Shown in pieces: positions 18,001 to 30,000 of a stretch of 64,000 nt of DNA (position 1 is the stretch's first letter; every line of letters starts with the position of its first letter). The position numbers were made by a program. Location of the stretch: assembly GCA_965202585.1 (NCBI GenBank), contig OZ241828.1:15066001-15130000 (forward strand), written 5' to 3'. The DNA is from Thalia democratica (taxonomy: Eukaryota).

Positions 18001-21000
18001 AATATACAAAAAATTGTCAAGTTACAGAACTGCTATAGCTGCATGCTTTAAATATTACCATATGTTTCTGGACACAAAGATATTAATGAAAATATATCAT
18101 GGTTATTAAATTTATAATTAAGATTTTAAGTCATAACAAATTGTTTTTTATAAATCCAATAACCAACATGCGTGTGTGACAGGTTTAAATATCATAATTA
18201 GTCTGGAAACGAGAATTTAAAATAAAGAAAACATATCTTAAAAGGCCATGAACGCAAAAGCAATGAAGTAAAAGGACAAATCAAAATTGTTTCACAATTA
18301 AAACACTTATACAACCGAAAATCATAATAAAATACTACTAGAATGTAACAACATCACTCGTAGTCAATAACTATAAGGTACGAAATCGCGCGAAGTGATA
18401 GTTAATACTGTATAAATATTATCATTTCTTGTAAAAACACAAAAAATATTATTACCTGCTACAAGCAACTTCAACCTACTCTAAAACATAAACTGAGATA
18501 ACAAGTAAAATTTATAAATATCAGGAAATAAACATTAAGGCAATTTTTTAAGTACCAAAGTAACTATGAATTTGCGAAATAAAGATGAACACATGCAAAA
18601 CATATTGCAAAAGTTAATTTTAATGGAAACCGCTCAGTTCCAACCCGCATACAATTCCCAACCGATCGAATCCTAGAACCGCTCACCGACCAAGGGTAAC
18701 AGTGATAGTAAAACTTTGAAGACAAACAAAAAATAAATAAAAATAAATAACGAACTAAAATCAAAAACAAAATTGGGTATGAGTTGTGCGGGTGGGAATT
18801 GTTAGTACAAAAATTTTAATATATCAATAAACAACCAGCCTGAAGAGCGGAATTTAGATAGCACTAAAATGCACCAAAAATAACTATTTTCATACTAACA
18901 GCTTACAATACACAATAGAACTAAGCTAACAAGTGAAAGCTAAAATAAGAGGAAATAAATAACAGAGGTTATTTCAGTATCAAAGTACAAACTAGTTTAC
19001 AAAAAAAAAAACATGTAAGCTACAAAATAATGCAAACAGCTTTGCTAAGGTTGTACTTGTTCTACAAAATAAAAAAATATTCTACACATTCTTAATAACT
19101 GTACCAACCTGAACAACAGAATTGAGGTAGCAGGTATTTCCAAGGTTGTAAAGTCCAGTCACGCCAGGCAACTTGTTGAAACAATTCGCATTTCTCTTGC
19201 TTTCAACATTCTTTTTAGTTTTATTGTCGGTCAACTTGCGTTTCATCGTGACTTGGCTCTTTGACGTTGTCACCGTGATCGACTCTTTTCTGTTAAGTTT
19301 AATAAAACTAAATGCATTCAACTTTAAAAAGTCGTGTTTTAATTGTTTTAAATAAAACTTTGAATTAGTAGCTTGCAAGATTTAAAAAGAACGATTATAG
19401 ATAATATGTAAATATAAGTTTACATGAAACACAAGAACTTAATTTATTTTTAGAAAAATATCAATTTAAATCAAATATTTTTTCAACAAAGGTCATTTGT
19501 CTGACCTTAAATAGCAACCGTTATCTTTGCATGGTCAAACAAATAAACTTTTATTGATTTTTATTCACATTTATTTAGTTGAACCCTGTTTTAACACATT
19601 TTAGCTGTTTGAAACAATTGAAGTCGAAAAACCAGTTTGTTATTTTCAATTTATTCCAATAATTGCAAAAATACACATTTAAATAAGTATTTGTTGTAGA
19701 AAATGGAACAAATATTAGAGGCTTCTTATTATAACTGTTATTTTATGTGTAAACGTTTCTTTTTAATAATACAAATATACATTCTACACCAGGGTTTCCA
19801 AAACTCTTTTTTCAAATTGCCCCCTTTGAAGAAATTAAAAAACCTATTGGCCCCTCGAACAAGATTACTCAAAAAACTACATTTAAAACAATTAAGATCT
19901 TTTTTTTTTCTCTTCGTCTGCAACTCAAGAATATTTAGTGTAAGTTTCAAATATACTATAAAAACACCTAAGACCTAAAGGTTAAAAAAATACAACTAAC
20001 TTTACTTCCTTTTTGATCAGCTTTTCACACAGCTTCTGCTTCTTCAACACCGGACTGCTACTGGTTGACAGTCTCTTGCTTCTCCTGATCAGCTCTTTGT
20101 TGTTTGAGGAGTTCTTGGGAGCTTCCTGGGACCTCAGAAGCCTCTGTGTTAAATCTTGGTTCAGTTTTTCCTGATTGAGGGGAACCACCTTTTTGGCGGG
20201 TTCAACGTTTTCAAGTGGGTTCGAGGACTTTCTTTTCAGACCGAGGACCTTAAAAAAAATAAATTTTACTAATAAAGCTTTTTAAAATAAAACTGTTTTC
20301 ACTAGAATATTAAACAAAAAATACAAATTCACTTATAATGAGCAAAACTTGAGACCTTGAGAGATAAAACTGTTTTTGCTAAAACGTTTTCAAGTCATAA
20401 TATTTAGTCAAACTTTGAAATACAATAGCCAGCAAAGAGAACTTAAAAATAAATTTAATGTTTTAGCTGACACTTGTATTATAATCAGCACAAATAAAAC
20501 TATTTAATTAATTGACTTATTATTATTTGTTGTCATAAAAAGTATTATTCGTATAGAATATTAATTATACATTATTATTAATATATTTATTATTATTACA
20601 TATTATAACTTTTCTTTAAAATATTTCTCTTATATTTTTAACTTGAGTCATGCGAGCTTATTTTAAAAAGTCACGTAAGACCTTATTAAAGTACTAAAAA
20701 GAACTAATTTTTTTAGATAAGTAGAAAAGTAATTCCATTAAAATAACTAACAGAGCTTCTGGGCTGCGGGGTCTTGAGAACCACCAACGGGATGTTTTCA
20801 TCGTCCGACTCGTCTGAGCTTGACACCAATTCGTTTTCCTTGGTAGATGCGTCTTTAACAGGACTGATCGGTTCTTGTTTGACCAGGAAAGTTTTGTTTC
20901 CAGTCTTGTCTTTGGTGTTTGAATCGCTCGGTACAACTTTAGTGGGACTTATGGGCTCTTGTTTAACTGTGAAAACTGGTATCTTTTTAGTTGAAGTATT

Positions 21001-27000: not shown

Positions 27001-30000
27001 CTGCCTCGTCCTTGAAACAGACCTGGATCTGGTCTTTTGCAGGCGACTGGATTTCAGGTCTGTTTTGGTCACTAACTTATTAATCAAAGAGCCGCTTCTG
27101 CTGCGAGTAGCGGTTTTAGCACTAGGCCCAGTAGGTTTCGACTCAATTTTTTTCTTGTAGTTTTTACCTGTCTCAAGGCAAATATCCGGCTTTTTCGGGT
27201 CAACTTCCACAGCCTTCTCCGAAGAGCTGTTGGAGTTGGAAGAATTCGATTGTGAGTCGAATTCCGGTAACTGATCAACTCCCAGCCTTTCATCAATTTT
27301 TTCCTTGTTGACCCTGTCAACCTCTTCAGCGTTATTTTTGTTGCCTTCCTCGCAAACGCTCTGCCGCGTTTGGCTCCTCGTCCTCTTCCTTTTCATCCTC
27401 TGCTGTTCCTCCTTCTCCTTTTTTATCTCCAGACTGATCCTCCTTTTGGTGGCCTCCAACTTCTTTATGTAATTCGTCTTTTCGGGACTTTTCGCTTTGA
27501 AGCTCTCAATTTTTTTCTCCAGCTCCTTCTCCATTTCTCGTTTTTTGAGAATTTCCCTCACTCGTTCGGTGTACTTCAAACTTTTGTCTGTTTCAGCTTC
27601 CCCCACCACGACCGAGCCCTTTTCTATCTGGCTTCTCGTCGATCTGGTCCTGGGAGACGTCGGCGCGAAACTTTCTGCGAGCTTCTTCCTACTCTTAGGG
27701 TTGTTTTCTCCCGAGCCGTCGAAAAATTTGACGCTCTTCTTGGGAGAAACACCTTTTTTAGGAGAAAATTCAACCTGATTTTTCTTTCTGGGGCTTTTTC
27801 TTGTAGGATTTTTAGAGCTTGCTTCGGAAGATTTTTCCTGCAACTGATCAATACCCAGCCTTTCGTTTAATTCTTTTTTATTTTTGTTACTTTCTTCGTC
27901 ATCTGTGTTTTGGGCGTCCAGTTCTTTTCTGTTGTAGTGGTAGGTCTTCCAATTTCTGAAGAACTTCCTACATCTAGACATCCTGTTTAAAAATTTTAGT
28001 AATTAGTACATTTTATATTTTCAAAGTTTTACTTAATTGTATAGTTTTAGACCTAAATCTATTTGATAATTAAACGTATATATAAACCATGTTTTTTTTC
28101 AAAGTTTGTTAACTATAACAACAATTAGATTATATAGACAAAATAAACAAATTAATAAACAGCTATATAGCTTATATTTAAAGCTAAGTTGAAATAAACA
28201 AAAAAAATTATAAAACACAAGTAGTTAATATATATTATCAGTTATGAGCTAGGATTAGTATAAAGAGTTTTTTAACAGTTTGCCCATAGCAAAACTAAGT
28301 TTTAATTATTCGTAAGTGTGGAGACCTAAGGAGACTTTTATTAAACAATTTGAGCTAATTTTGAATGAGAAGATATTTAGATATAAATTCAAAATAAAAA
28401 AGTATTTACACAACTTTTACATTTCTTACACTTAGATTTTTTCTTGATTAAGTCAATAATTGTCCAAAAAACTTTAAGTTATGACGTCAGCAAACTGAAA
28501 TGTTTGAAATATAAAATTCGTTTTCAAAGTTTTTTGTTTCAATTAGTTTTACTTAAGGCTTTGTGTTGAACGTTTTTTATTTTTGTGTCTATTTGGAATA
28601 CAGTTTAGCTTTGTGTGTTTTAAGATAGGAAAAATGTCGTTCAGAAGACTCAAAATTAATTCGGAGAATCCAGTTTTGAAGAGTTTGATCAAAACCGAAA
28701 AAGATGAACTGACTTTAATGGCTAGGTTTAAATTTCAAGACAATTTTAAAAACTTTTTATCTTTTTTGCATAAATTAGCATACATTAACATCTTAGTTAA
28801 GCATAATATTTTTTTTAATAGTAAATATTGAATAGTTTGGTTTTGGTACTGGTTTTAATTAAAAAGTTTAAACATAACTGACTCATTTTCAAAAAAAAAG
28901 TTTATTTATTAATTTCGTTTAGCTCTTTTCAGAATAACATTGCTAAAAACTATGAATATTGTAGAGTAATTTTAGTTATATATAATGAATTTGAAAAGTC
29001 TAACAAAAAATAGTTACGTCATAAAGAATAAAAGTCTGTTTAGAAAAAGTTTGAAAAATAGAATAGAGCTATACTGAACTAACTTAAAGTAATTTATAAG
29101 ACAAAATTGCTAAAACAAAAACATTTAAAATAGTATAAATTTTTACCTTAAACTAAATTAAATAAAAAGCACATTAAAAATACGACAATAACAACAACGA
29201 AAAATAATACTACTAAAGACCCTATTTGTAAAGTTTTAAATTGTAAAAATCTCTTTGTTTGCAAATTTTTGGCTCGCGAGATCTAATAAATAGAGATTCT
29301 AGAACTGAAAGATGGTAGGTGTTTCTAGCTCGGGATAGGATTTCGAACCTATTATCCAGGTAGTTCTCGGCACAAACAGGGTTGTTGAGGAGGTGCTGAT
29401 TTTGTCTTATAAATTACTTTAAGTTAGTTCAGTATAGCTCTATTCTATTTTTCAAACTTTTTCTAAACAGACTTTTATTCTTTATGACGTAACTATTTTT
29501 TGTTAGACTTTTCAAATTCATTATATATAACTAAAATTACTCTACAATATTCATAGTTTTTAGCAATGTTATTCTGAAGAGAGCTAAACGAAATTAATAA
29601 ATAAACTTTTTTTTTGAAAATGAGTCAGTTATGTTTAAACTTTTTAAGTAAATATTGCATTATTGCATTGCTTTTTTATTCTGTTTGTCTGATTTAAAGC
29701 TTGAAAATATACTTTGCAGTTTCAGCTCTACGAAAATCAAACCTAAAAATGAGAAAAAGAAAGTCAAGCAACAAGAAAAAGTTTGTTAAGACTTATCTGT
29801 TTTGATCAGTTTACGAGTTAAACTTCAAGTTATTCTAGAAGCCGTATTACCTTCATTATTTTGGTCAATTTCAAATATTCAAGTGACAATACTTGATAAG
29901 TAAAGATTTATTAAAGCTTGTTTATCCAACTGTTTCTAAATTTGTTTATACCAAGGTCATTGTTTTGCTTATTATTACAACTTTTGAAAATTGCTATTAC

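What the first reader, a model, noticed from the sequence alone, without database searches (positions are those of the whole stretch)
20752..27982. USP44/49 homologue with an IDR of about 2,500 aa, mostly in one 7.2-kb exon
Seen: a stop-free 7,231-nt exon lies between the ZnF-UBP and the Cys box, giving a protein of over 3,000 aa. Established: vertebrate USP44/USP49 are about 700 aa with a short linker here and act on ubiquitylated H2B. Inference: this is a lineage-specific scaffold expansion. Exon 5 cannot be skipped in frame (phase 2 in, phase 0 out).
Basis: partly seen in the sequence, partly recalled or inferred. Interest (0 to 1): 0.65.

Follow-up and report, generated by a model that had tools for sequence, protein, structure and literature searches.

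The report
Giant disordered linker in USP44/49-type deubiquitinase
A deubiquitinase gene of the USP44/49 type in an AT-rich animal-like genome carries one 7.2-kb stop-free exon that would put about 2,600 mostly disordered residues between its zinc finger and its catalytic site, where the human enzyme has about 175.

Summary
On the minus strand a frame is open for 2,429 codons (20713..28002). It is bounded by an AG acceptor (exon starts at 27982) and a GTTAGT donor (exon ends at 20752), giving 7,231 nt. Shuffles never exceed 335 codons.

The exon fits in phase into an 11-exon GT-AG model. A ZnF-UBP split over two exons lies upstream, and its best solved relative is human USP49. A USP Cys box lies downstream. 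The C-terminal half of the catalytic domain lies outside the window.

The exon product is rich in K, S and E, has no Pfam, PDB or ESM Atlas match, and is almost all below pLDDT 50. The exceptions are one roughly 100-residue charged helix and short N-terminal helices. It carries local repeats, excess [ST]Px[KR] sites, an RS cluster, four [VI]KQEP sites and one SIM-like motif.

Two caveats:
- Exon 5 alone cannot be skipped in frame, but exons 5 and 6 together are 7,479 nt (2,493 codons) and can. A short canonical isoform or a nested gene is therefore not excluded.
- "Lineage-specific" rests on two published lengths only (human 712 aa, Schistosoma mansoni 823 aa).

Verdict: a real feature and a new variant of a known kind, of moderate interest.

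The parts
44700..44854 (-). Exon 2 of the model (155 nt, phase 0 to 2): first half of the ZnF-UBP. No start codon lies in frame, so an upstream ATG exon is missing from the model.
   Evidence: Pfam zf-UBP profile positions 1-26 of 63, E 0.0034, 18 bits, below the 22.7 cut-off because it is half a domain. The only significant PDB hit is USP49 ZnF-UBP 9yc2_A, E 3.9e-7. Acceptor AG and donor GTTTGT.
43157..43328 (-). Exon 3 (172 nt, phase 2 to 0): second half of the ZnF-UBP.
   Evidence: Pfam zf-UBP 41.1 bits, E 2.2e-10, profile 22-59 of 63. Best PDB hit is USP49 9yc2_A, E 8.5e-10; next is HDAC6 at 1.5e-4. AG / GTAAGT.
41706..41860 (-). Exon 4 (155 nt, phase 0 to 2): basic linker piece ending in a Trp-containing stretch (Trp at model residue 158).
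   Evidence: Stop-free, GC 0.43 against about 0.25 in the flanking introns, AG / GTATGT. No Pfam family.
20752..27982 (-). Exon 5, the finding: 7,231 nt, 1 base plus 2,410 codons, phase 2 to 0. K/S/E-rich and mostly predicted disordered.
   Evidence: No Pfam family at the gathering score, 0 PDB hits at E<=0.1, no usable ESM Atlas hit.
27913..27975 (-). Residues 3-23 of exon 5: predicted helix holding the exon's only tryptophan (residue 11, 27951..27949). Candidate centrin-binding motif.
   Evidence: AF2 helix 3-23, block pLDDT 54-61. W is 0.0% of the exon composition. Published centrin-binding Trp: USP44 W162 and USP49 W158. Correspondence is not shown by any alignment here.
27286..27591 (-). 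Residues 131-232: long charged K/E/R-rich helix (single alpha-helix or coiled-coil type).
   Evidence: AF2 helices 131-164 and 166-232, block pLDDT 62-94. GC3 0.61 in codons 121-240.
26881..27105 (-). Residues 293-367: cluster of RS/SR dipeptides (RS-domain-like).
   Evidence: 15 of the exon's 23 RS/SR dipeptides lie here. The total of 23 is not in excess of shuffles (30 of 300 shuffles reach it); only the clustering stands out.
23278..23565 (-). Tandem array of a 21-nt unit (7 residues, SEKSEVV type), 13.7 copies.
   Evidence: TRF: period 21, 83% matches, score 380. Protein self-hits span 1463-1586. The weak Pfam LbR_Ice_bind match (18.5 bits against a cut-off of 30) falls on this array.
21142..24021 (-). 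Codons 1321-2280: tract with third-position GC of 0.12-0.32, at or below intron GC, and still stop-free.
   Evidence: for GC3 per 120 codons. P(no stop in 960 codons) is 5e-18. CpG o/e is 0.19-0.45 over codons 1201-1920.
20773..21171 (-). Residues 2271-2403: four units of about 28 residues, each with a [VI]KQEP SUMO-consensus-type site. The tract ends in an acidic Ser cluster plus hydrophobic core (SIM-like, 20776..20823).
   Evidence: Self-hits E 1.8e-14 to 1e-4. [VI]KQEP occurs 4 times and 0 of 300 shuffles reach that; the SIM-like pattern is reached by 0 of 300 shuffles.
20001..20248 (-). Exon 6 (248 nt, phase 0 to 2): 82 further basic, Ser-rich linker codons. It has no ATG of its own and needs a phase-0 upstream partner.
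   Evidence: AG after a T9 run, donor GTTAGT, GC 0.46 against 0.20-0.25 in the flanking introns. No Pfam family.
19109..19289 (-). Exon 7 (181 nt, phase 2 to 0): end of the linker and the USP Cys box. The catalytic Cys is model residue 2,707, counted from exon 2.
   Evidence: Pfam UCH profile 1-18 of 254, E 1.1e-4, 22.3 bits, just under the 23.9 cut-off because it is a fragment. AG / GTTGGT.
5435..11348 (-). Exons 8-12 of the catalytic domain: 11348..11222, 10298..10183, 9944..9807, 6094..5963 and 5613..5435. The rest of the domain, with the His box, lies beyond the low end of the window.
   Evidence: Pfam UCH E 0.0082 (profile 85-124 of 254) and UCH_1 E 5.8e-4 (profile 123-170 of 317) on the ORFs that hold exons 11 and 12. 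PDB hits to USP46, USP12, USP35, USP2 and USP1. Splice sites and phases. No USP-like ORF in 1..3400.

Best explanation
This is a coding exon of a ZnF-UBP plus USP deubiquitinase gene of the USP44/49 type in a very AT-rich, intron-rich, animal-like genome that is not human.

Spliced as modelled (exon 4 to 5 to 6 to 7), it puts about 2,600 residues between the zinc finger and the catalytic cysteine. Human USP44 has about 175 there. The insert is a polyampholyte that is mostly disordered and carries ordered or functional islands:
- a Trp-containing helix at its start (candidate centrin-binding site);
- a charged helix of about 100 residues;
- SPKK/CDK-type sites;
- an RS cluster;
- a 7-residue tandem array;
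- a terminal array of SUMO-consensus sites with a SIM-like motif.

Inferred mechanism: the catalytic domain works as in other USPs, and the N-terminal finger and helix anchor the enzyme on nucleosomes, ubiquitin or centrin. The long tether acts as a docking scaffold regulated by phosphorylation and SUMO. It lets the catalytic domain reach targets tens of nanometres from the anchor, at the price of much weaker intramolecular coupling between finger and catalytic domain.

Shown: the open frame, the splice sites and phases, the domain identities, the composition, the repeats and the motif excess. Inferred: inclusion of the exon in the main mRNA, disorder, and every functional role of the insert.
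For: - Open frame and statistics.
- The frame ends 20 nt upstream of a consensus acceptor and 39 nt downstream of a donor.
- All 11 modelled exons have AG/GT, chain in phase and hold 0 stops. Exon GC is 0.39-0.46 against 0.18-0.26 in the introns.
- Exon 6 has no ATG, and only exon 5 or exon 3 offers it phase 0.
- ZnF-UBP: Pfam and USP49 as the best solved relative for both halves. Cys box and mid-domain USP pieces.
- Composition: K 15.7%, S 13.1%, E 10.0%, aromatic residues about 2%. Mean hydropathy is 0.384, below the Uversky boundary of 0.421.
- AF2: 1,052 of 1,200 and 1,195 of 1,200 residues below pLDDT 50.
- Motifs: [ST]Px[KR] occurs 18 times against 5.2 +/- 2.3 in shuffles (0 of 300 reach it), and [VI]KQEP 4 times against about 0.
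- Repeats: 31 off-diagonal self-hits against 2-5 in 10 shuffles.
- Only 2 of 239 90-nt windows in the exon fall below GC 0.27, so no stretch looks like a retained intron.
- Literature passages: human USP44 is 712 aa, with ZnF 29-97 and USP 273-678. Centrin-binding W162 and W158 lie in that linker. The USP49 finger binds nucleosomes, and ZnF-UBPs help release product ubiquitin with affinities of 6-175 uM.
- A worm-like-chain estimate gives an rms span of 7 nm and about 1.4 mM effective concentration for 175 residues, against 28 nm and about 25 uM for 2,595 residues (arithmetic, not a measurement).
Against: - No transcript or protein data exist here, so inclusion rests on splice consensus and phase alone.
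- Exons 5 and 6 together are divisible by 3, so a short isoform that skips them stays in frame.
- The first full codon of exon 5 is ATG. The frame reaches a stop 39 nt past the donor, and the exon 6 frame also reaches a stop just past its donor. A separate nested gene therefore fits the phases as well.
- Inside exon 5 there are 4 donor-like hexamers and 21 acceptor-like sites, so internal splicing is possible.
- Single-sequence AF2 gives low confidence for many folded proteins too.
- GC3 is 0.36 in exon 5 against 0.54 in the other exons pooled, and falls to 0.12 in places. The middle of the exon is unlike the conserved exons.
- The total [VILMF]KxE count is not enriched (7 against 7.5; 185 of 300 shuffles reach it), nor is the RS/SR total.
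- The centrin triad is only partly matched around the exon 5 Trp, and which of the two Trp corresponds to the published one is not shown by any search.
Confidence: 0.62

Rival explanations
1. Optional cassette. Exons 5 and 6 are included only in some transcripts. Splicing exon 4 to exon 7 gives a protein of ordinary USP44/49 size, and the giant form is a minor or tissue-specific isoform.
For: Exon 5 plus exon 6 is 7,479 nt, or 2,493 codons. Exon 4 leaves phase 2 and exon 7 enters in phase 2. Published orthologues of 712 and 823 aa show that the enzyme works without such an insert.
Against: - Skipping would remove the exon 5 Trp helix. From recall, not from a call, that Trp is the counterpart of the published centrin-binding Trp.
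- A 7.2-kb frame kept open (P about 1e-41) shows that the giant form is under selection in some setting.
- This rival is compatible with the main reading rather than opposed to it.
Confidence: 0.3
2. Nested gene. The open frame is a separate one- or two-exon gene starting at ATG 27981 and ending at the stop at 20713, or after exon 6 at the stop near 19985. It lies on the same strand inside a 22-kb intron of the deubiquitinase gene, which splices over it.
For: ATG is the first full codon after the acceptor. In-frame stops follow both donors closely. The exon 4 to exon 7 splice is in frame. GC3 differs from the other exons, 0.36 against 0.54. No family links the insert to USPs.
Against: - Consensus acceptor and donor sit exactly at the ends of the frame, with matching phases on both sides. 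A free-standing gene would not need these.
- Within-family codon fractions correlate with those of the other exons (r = 0.73 over 53 codons).
- GC3 of the first fifth (0.48) is close to that of the conserved exons.
- No promoter evidence was sought or found.
Confidence: 0.1
3. Internal splicing. The genomic frame is open, but cryptic introns inside exon 5 are removed, so the protein is much shorter than 3,000 aa.
For: 4 donor-like hexamers and 21 acceptor-like sites lie inside the exon. The GC3-poor middle (0.12-0.26 over codons 1321-1920) has synonymous composition like that of introns.
Against: That same tract is stop-free over 960 codons (P = 5e-18). Its first and second codon positions keep the same GC (0.38-0.43) as the rest of the exon. 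Only 2 of 239 windows drop below GC 0.27. An intron would not be kept open in frame.
Confidence: 0.1

Closest known systems
Vertebrate USP44 / USP49 (histone H2B deubiquitinases that bind centrin)
   Same: - The domain order is ZnF-UBP, linker, USP domain, with the finger as the only extra domain.
- The finger is about 50% identical to USP49 over the aligned 40 residues and hits USP49 far better than HDAC6, Ubp8 or USP16.
- Trp residues lie about 160-170 residues from the N-terminus, near where the published centrin-binding W158 and W162 lie.
   Different: - The linker is about 2,600 residues against about 175. The catalytic Cys is at model residue 2,707 against C281.
- The insert has its own repeat arrays and motif clusters.
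- The His-box half and the start codon were not seen.
- Activity on H2B was not tested.
Schistosoma mansoni USP49-44 (Smp_123630), an invertebrate orthologue listed in print
   Same: Assigned to the same KEGG group USP44_49 with zf-UBP and UCH domains (passage seen).
   Different: It is listed at 823 aa, so at least one invertebrate orthologue is of ordinary length. The sequences were not compared here.
USP16/45, USP3 and USP22/27X/51 (other histone-directed ZnF-UBP USPs)
   Same: Same two-domain plan and a chromatin role.
   Different: USP16 and Ubp8 (the yeast USP22 relative) match the finger much more weakly (E 0.067 and 0.0023 against 8.5e-10). No USP3 entry appeared among the solved-structure hits, so USP3 could not be excluded by a test.
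Long disordered K/S/E-rich nuclear scaffolds with RS-like, SPKK-type and SUMO-site arrays (named from general knowledge)
   Same: Composition, an alternation of basic and acidic stretches (net charge +25 to -18 per 200 residues), and clustered short motifs.
   Different: No sequence relation to any such family was found. Here the region is an internal linker of an enzyme.

Membership tests
USP (peptidase C19) deubiquitinases | Cys box with the catalytic cysteine | tested here: met
   Pfam UCH profile positions 1-18 of 254, E 1.1e-4, 22.3 bits, on the ORF at 19085..19381. This is a fragment, just under the 23.9 cut-off. The motif is read directly.
USP (peptidase C19) deubiquitinases | Middle blocks of the USP fold | tested here: met
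   UCH profile 85-124 (E 0.0082) and UCH_1 profile 123-170 (E 5.8e-4), both fragments below the cut-offs. PDB hits to USP46 and USP12 at E 1e-4.
USP (peptidase C19) deubiquitinases | His box and catalytic Asp/Asn | not testable with these tools
   This part lies beyond the low end of the window. No USP-like ORF was found in 1..3400.
ZnF-UBP-containing USPs | Complete zf-UBP domain N-terminal to the USP domain | tested here: met
   Two exons cover profile positions 1-26 and 22-59 of 63 (18 and 41.1 bits; cut-off 22.7). Together they align to residues 6-89 of the 105-residue USP49 finger chain.
USP44/49 subfamily | Finger closer to USP44/49 than to other ZnF-UBPs | tested here: inconclusive
   USP49 is the best of 18 and of 2 PDB sequences listed.
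USP44/49 subfamily | Centrin-binding motif anchored by an invariant Trp in the linker (W162 in USP44, W158 in USP49) | tested here: inconclusive
   Two Trp lie at model residues 158 (exon 4) and 172 (exon 5), 14 apart. Hydrophobic residues sit at -3 and -4 of the second Trp, but Cys sits at -7, so the triad described in the abstract of PMC3871271 (listing) is only partly matched. No alignment to full-length USP44/49 was possible. Supplementary Fig. S7 of PMC9879932, which shows the motif, could not be seen.
USP44/49 subfamily | Deubiquitination of H2B-ubiquitin | not testable with these tools
   This needs a biochemical assay.
Intrinsically disordered region | Low hydropathy, few aromatic residues, no domain match, low predicted order | tested here: met
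   (mean hydropathy 0.384 against a boundary of 0.421; F+Y+W about 2%). (no domain, no structure relative). (2,247 of 2,400 residues below pLDDT 50). Exceptions are helices 3-23, 29-41 and 131-232. Sliding windows cross the fold boundary in about 640-800, 920-1330, 1400-1690 and 2045-2130. No dedicated disorder predictor was available.

The most novel reading that the evidence does not exclude
The giant linker is a working part of the enzyme and a mosaic of ages. Islands rich in third-position GC would be old: the Trp helix, the charged helix at 131-232 and the segment at 961-1080 (GC3 0.47-0.76, like the conserved exons at 0.54). They are joined by about 1,000 codons whose third positions have drifted to, or came from, background AT-rich DNA (GC3 0.12-0.26) and yet are kept open. 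On this reading a histone and centrosome deubiquitinase has been turned into a chromatin scaffold with a contour length of about 1 micrometre, gated by phosphorylation and SUMO. Its finger and catalytic domain act as two nearly independent modules, which would test in nature the recent model that ZnF-UBPs act in cis to release product ubiquitin.
Probability: 0.15. Interest if true: 0.6.

Novelty: new variant of a known kind. Interest (0 to 1): 0.4.

Why it matters
USP44 and USP49 are studied as compact enzymes whose finger, centrin-binding helix and catalytic domain sit within about 280 residues. A natural form with a roughly 15-fold longer tether would be a ready-made test of how much these enzymes depend on coupling in cis between finger and catalytic domain (the product-release model; passages). 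It would also test how disordered linkers acquire docking motifs.

It is also a clean case for studying how a multi-kilobase exon stays open in a genome where a random frame closes about every 11 codons. The practical value is limited until the organism, the transcripts and the orthologues are known.

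Tried and rejected
- **Whole-frame Pfam scans.** I then used stop-to-stop pieces.
- **Exon 5 searches that found nothing.** Pfam gave only a sub-threshold match on the tandem array. PDB gave 0 hits. The ESM Atlas gave no usable hit in two searches, after one search failed on the length limit.
- **Window-wide RNA scans.** Rfam at the gathering score gave 0 matches and ARAGORN gave 0 tRNAs, so neither gave a clue to the organism.
- **Antisense frames.** The plus-strand frames of 159-401 codons inside the exon have no family at the cut-offs. I take them as by-products of the low stop content opposite K/E/S codons.
- **Self-comparison.** A first whole-against-whole blastp printed no off-diagonal rows. 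A windowed version with shuffled controls worked.
- **Motifs rejected as signals.** KEN, D-box, the general [VILMF]KxE count, the RS/SR total and SPKK-type sites are not above shuffles.
- **Papers.** The 2012 paper that defined the USP44 centrin motif is not held.
- **Not done.** The joined spliced protein was never built or searched; all searches were exon by exon. The window has no N and is 21-28% GC outside the exon. I do not take it for human.
- **Unchecked because tools were closed.** Any orthologue or paralogue search was impossible (search for homologous proteins, the search of protein representatives, metagenome and viral collections). The length survey, the subfamily tree and the identity of the organism therefore stayed open.

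Full report
**1. The observation**

The feature lies on the minus strand. A frame is open from 28002 to 20713, 2,429 codons. The DNA shows an acceptor AG at 27984-27983 after a TACTAAT-like branch site and a T run. The exon starts at 27982, an ATG follows as the first full codon, and a GTTAGT donor sits right after 20752. That gives 7,231 nt, 1 base plus 2,410 codons, so phase 2 in and phase 0 out.

The window has no N. It is 21-28% GC outside this exon and 34-42% inside it. I do not take it for human.

In such DNA a random frame closes about every 11 codons: 0.087 stops per codon from intron composition. The next longest frames in all six frames of the window are 401, 247 and 210 codons, and these three lie antisense to this exon. 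None of 500 mononucleotide shuffles exceeded 189 codons. None of 500 shuffles that keep codon-position composition exceeded 335. P(no stop) is 8e-74 from exon composition and 1.4e-41 from position-specific composition.

**2. The gene around it**

Stop-to-stop pieces with raised GC on the same strand gave a chain of eleven exons. All have AG and GT, all fit in phase, and none holds a stop.

| Exon | Coordinates | Phase in to out |
|---|---|---|
| 2 | 44854..44700 | 0 to 2 |
| 3 | 43328..43157 | 2 to 0 |
| 4 | 41860..41706 | 0 to 2 |
| 5 | 27982..20752 | 2 to 0 |
| 6 | 20248..20001 | 0 to 2 |
| 7 | 19289..19109 | 2 to 0 |
| 8 | 11348..11222 | 0 to 1 |
| 9 | 10298..10183 | 1 to 0 |
| 10 | 9944..9807 | 0 to 0 |
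| 11 | 6094..5963 | 0 to 0 |
| 12 | 5613..5435 | 0 to 2 |

Exon GC is 0.39-0.46 and intron GC is 0.18-0.26. The exons sum to 8,834 nt, or 2,944 codons.

No start codon lies in frame in exon 2, so an upstream ATG exon is missing. Nothing USP-like lies in 1..3400, so the His-box half of the catalytic domain is outside the window. 'Over 3,000 aa' is therefore a fair estimate and not a reading. I did not build or search the joined protein; every search was exon by exon.

**3. Identity**

Pfam finds zf-UBP split over exons 2 and 3: profile positions 1-26 at 18 bits, and 22-59 at 41.1 bits against a cut-off of 22.7. Against solved structures, exon 3 hits the USP49 finger (9yc2_A) at E 8.5e-10. The next hits are HDAC6 at 1.5e-4, yeast Ubp8 at 0.0023 and USP16 at 0.067, out of 18 sequences listed at E<=1. 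Exon 2 hits only that same chain significantly (3.9e-7; 2 sequences listed).

The Cys box matches UCH profile positions 1-18 (E 1.1e-4). Two further pieces match UCH 85-124 and UCH_1 123-170. As fragments, all are under the whole-domain cut-offs. The catalytic pieces hit USP46, USP12, USP35, USP2 and USP1 in the PDB, which does not discriminate between subfamilies.

So this is a ZnF-UBP plus USP enzyme whose finger is USP49-like. No USP44 or USP3 entry appeared among the hits and no tree could be made, so 'USP44/49' is the best-supported label but remains unproven against USP3.

**4. What exon 5 encodes**

Composition:
- K 15.7%, S 13.1%, E 10.0%, V 8.7%, T 8.1%.
- F+Y+W about 2%, with a single Trp.
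- Mean hydropathy is 0.384, under the Uversky boundary of 0.421.
- The first 600 residues are basic (+55 net) and residues 1401-2200 are acidic (-55 net).

No Pfam family reaches its cut-off, no PDB sequence matches at E<=0.1, and two ESM Atlas searches gave nothing usable.

Single-sequence AlphaFold2 puts 1,052 of 1,200 and 1,195 of 1,200 residues below pLDDT 50. The predicted helices are 3-23, 29-41, 131-232 (block pLDDT up to 94) and two short ones near 966-985. Single-sequence models are weak evidence, but they agree with the composition.

The region is not featureless. Windowed self-comparison gives 31 off-diagonal hits against 2-5 in ten shuffles:
- a 21-nt tandem array of 13.7 copies at 23278..23565;
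- four units of about 28 residues, each with [VI]KQEP, at 2271-2403;
- SSKD-type modules at 1881-2007;
- a duplicated stretch of about 35-50 residues at 24-76 and 215-264;
- a pair at 681-701 and 734-754.

Against 300 shuffles, [ST]Px[KR] sites number 18 against 5.2 +/- 2.3 (0 shuffles reach it). [VI]KQEP occurs 4 times against about 0. One acidic-Ser cluster plus hydrophobic core (SIM-like) closes the exon. RS/SR dipeptides are not in excess overall (23; 30 of 300 shuffles reach it), but 15 of them lie in residues 293-367. KEN, D-box, the general SUMO consensus and SPKK-type sites are not above chance.

**5. A mosaic in synonymous composition**

Third-position GC is 0.36 in exon 5 against 0.54 in the other ten exons pooled. 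It varies from 0.76 (codons 961-1080) and 0.61 (121-240) down to 0.12-0.26 (1321-1920). First- and second-position GC stays at 0.38-0.46 throughout. CpG o/e runs from 0.19 to 1.0.

The GC3-poor tract (codons 1321-2280) is still stop-free (P = 5e-18). I read the GC3-rich parts, which include the predicted helices, as older or more constrained. I read the GC3-poor middle as younger or fast-evolving sequence that is kept open. This is inference and needs orthologues.

**6. Is the exon part of the deubiquitinase mRNA?**

For:
- Consensus sites sit at the very ends of the frame, and the phases match on both sides.
- Exon 6 has no ATG and needs a phase-0 partner, which only exon 5 or exon 3 provides.
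- Codon choice correlates with that of the other exons (r = 0.73).
- No part of the exon looks like intron (2 of 239 windows under GC 0.27).

A further lead is weaker. Exon 4 ends with a Trp-containing stretch and exon 5 starts with a helix holding the exon's only Trp. With the modelled junction the two Trp lie 14 residues apart, at model residues 158 and 172. The published centrin-binding Trp are W162 (USP44) and W158 (USP49), both in this linker (passages). From recall only, the vertebrate proteins also have two Trp 14 apart, the second being the published one. No call tests this, and the supplement that shows the motif could not be opened.

Against:
- There are no transcripts.
Exons 5 and 6 together are 7,479 nt, or 2,493 codons, and exon 4 fits exon 7 in phase. 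A canonical-size isoform, or a same-strand nested gene starting at the ATG at 27981 and ending at the stops just past either donor, also fits the phases.
- Four donor-like and 21 acceptor-like sites lie inside the exon.

**7. How it most likely works (inferred)**

The catalytic domain should act like other USPs. In the human relatives the finger binds ubiquitin or nucleosomes and helps clear product ubiquitin from the catalytic domain, and the linker helix binds centrin (passages).

Here the two ends would be joined by about 2,595 residues. A worm-like-chain estimate gives an rms span of about 28 nm and an effective concentration of about 25 uM. For 175 residues the figures are 7 nm and 1.4 mM. 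Reported finger-ubiquitin affinities are 6-175 uM. Cis coupling would therefore be much weaker and the reach much longer.

The motif arrays suggest a docking scaffold controlled by proline-directed kinases and SUMO, with a nuclear, chromatin or speckle address. None of this was tested.

**8. Comparison and novelty**

Human USP44 is 712 aa, with ZnF 29-97 and USP 273-678 (passage). S. mansoni USP49-44 is listed at 823 aa (passage). One paper states that invertebrates generally have a single member where vertebrates have paralogues (passages).

Three literature searches turned up no title or passage on a giant USP44/49:
- 5 papers, all listed;
- 20 of 278 listed;
- 12 of 17 listed.

These searches are narrow and prove nothing about databases. 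I file the finding as a new variant of a known kind: a USP44/49-type enzyme with a linker about 15 times longer. Interest is moderate, because giant low-complexity exons are not rare in invertebrate gene models and the key facts (transcripts, orthologues, organism) are missing.

**9. Left unchecked**

- The start codon exon.
- The C-terminal half of the catalytic domain.
- The supplements of PMC9879932.
- The 2012 paper that defined the motif, which is not held.

Noticed in passing
window donors at 44699, 20751, 20000, 19108, 11221, 9806, 5962 and 5434 (minus strand): 8 of the 11 modelled donor sites have T at intron position +3: GTTAGT four times, GTTGGT twice, and GTTTGT and GTTAGA once each. 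From general knowledge, most animals have a purine there. This may be a trait of the lineage and a clue to the organism.
   Followed up: no
window 28854..29652: An inverted-repeat element lies in the 13.7-kb intron upstream of exon 5. Its two 254-nt arms are 99% complementary and 291 nt apart, and a 63-codon frame (29225..29413, minus strand) between them has no Pfam family. It looks like a young foldback or MITE-like insertion about 870 nt from the acceptor.
   Followed up: partly
window 37575..37875: A GC-rich island (up to 0.47 against 0.25 around it) sits in the middle of the same intron, with frames of 56-87 codons open on both strands. One frame was tested and has no Pfam family at the cut-off. 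It could be an exon of another gene, an alternative first exon or a promoter.
   Followed up: partly
window 49020..49358: A lysine-rich frame of 78 codons on the minus strand starts with Met and holds a repeated KKSRKTLPKK-like unit. It overlaps a 112-codon frame on the plus strand. No Pfam family. It lies about 4.3 kb upstream of exon 2, and its relation to the missing first exon is unknown.
   Followed up: partly
window 33446..33964 and 36048..36510: Two sets of direct repeats with spacings of about 284-288 and 228-229 nt (76-86% identical) lie in the large intron. They are local tandem duplications or satellite-like units.
   Followed up: no
window 41458..41693: A 91-nt direct repeat (92% identical, spacing 145 nt) lies immediately downstream of the exon 4 donor, inside the intron.
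   Followed up: no
window 60575..60757: A 61-codon frame on the minus strand has GC 0.40 in an otherwise 21-23% GC stretch. No Pfam family at the cut-off. It may be a remnant of a mobile element or an exon of a neighbouring gene.
   Followed up: partly
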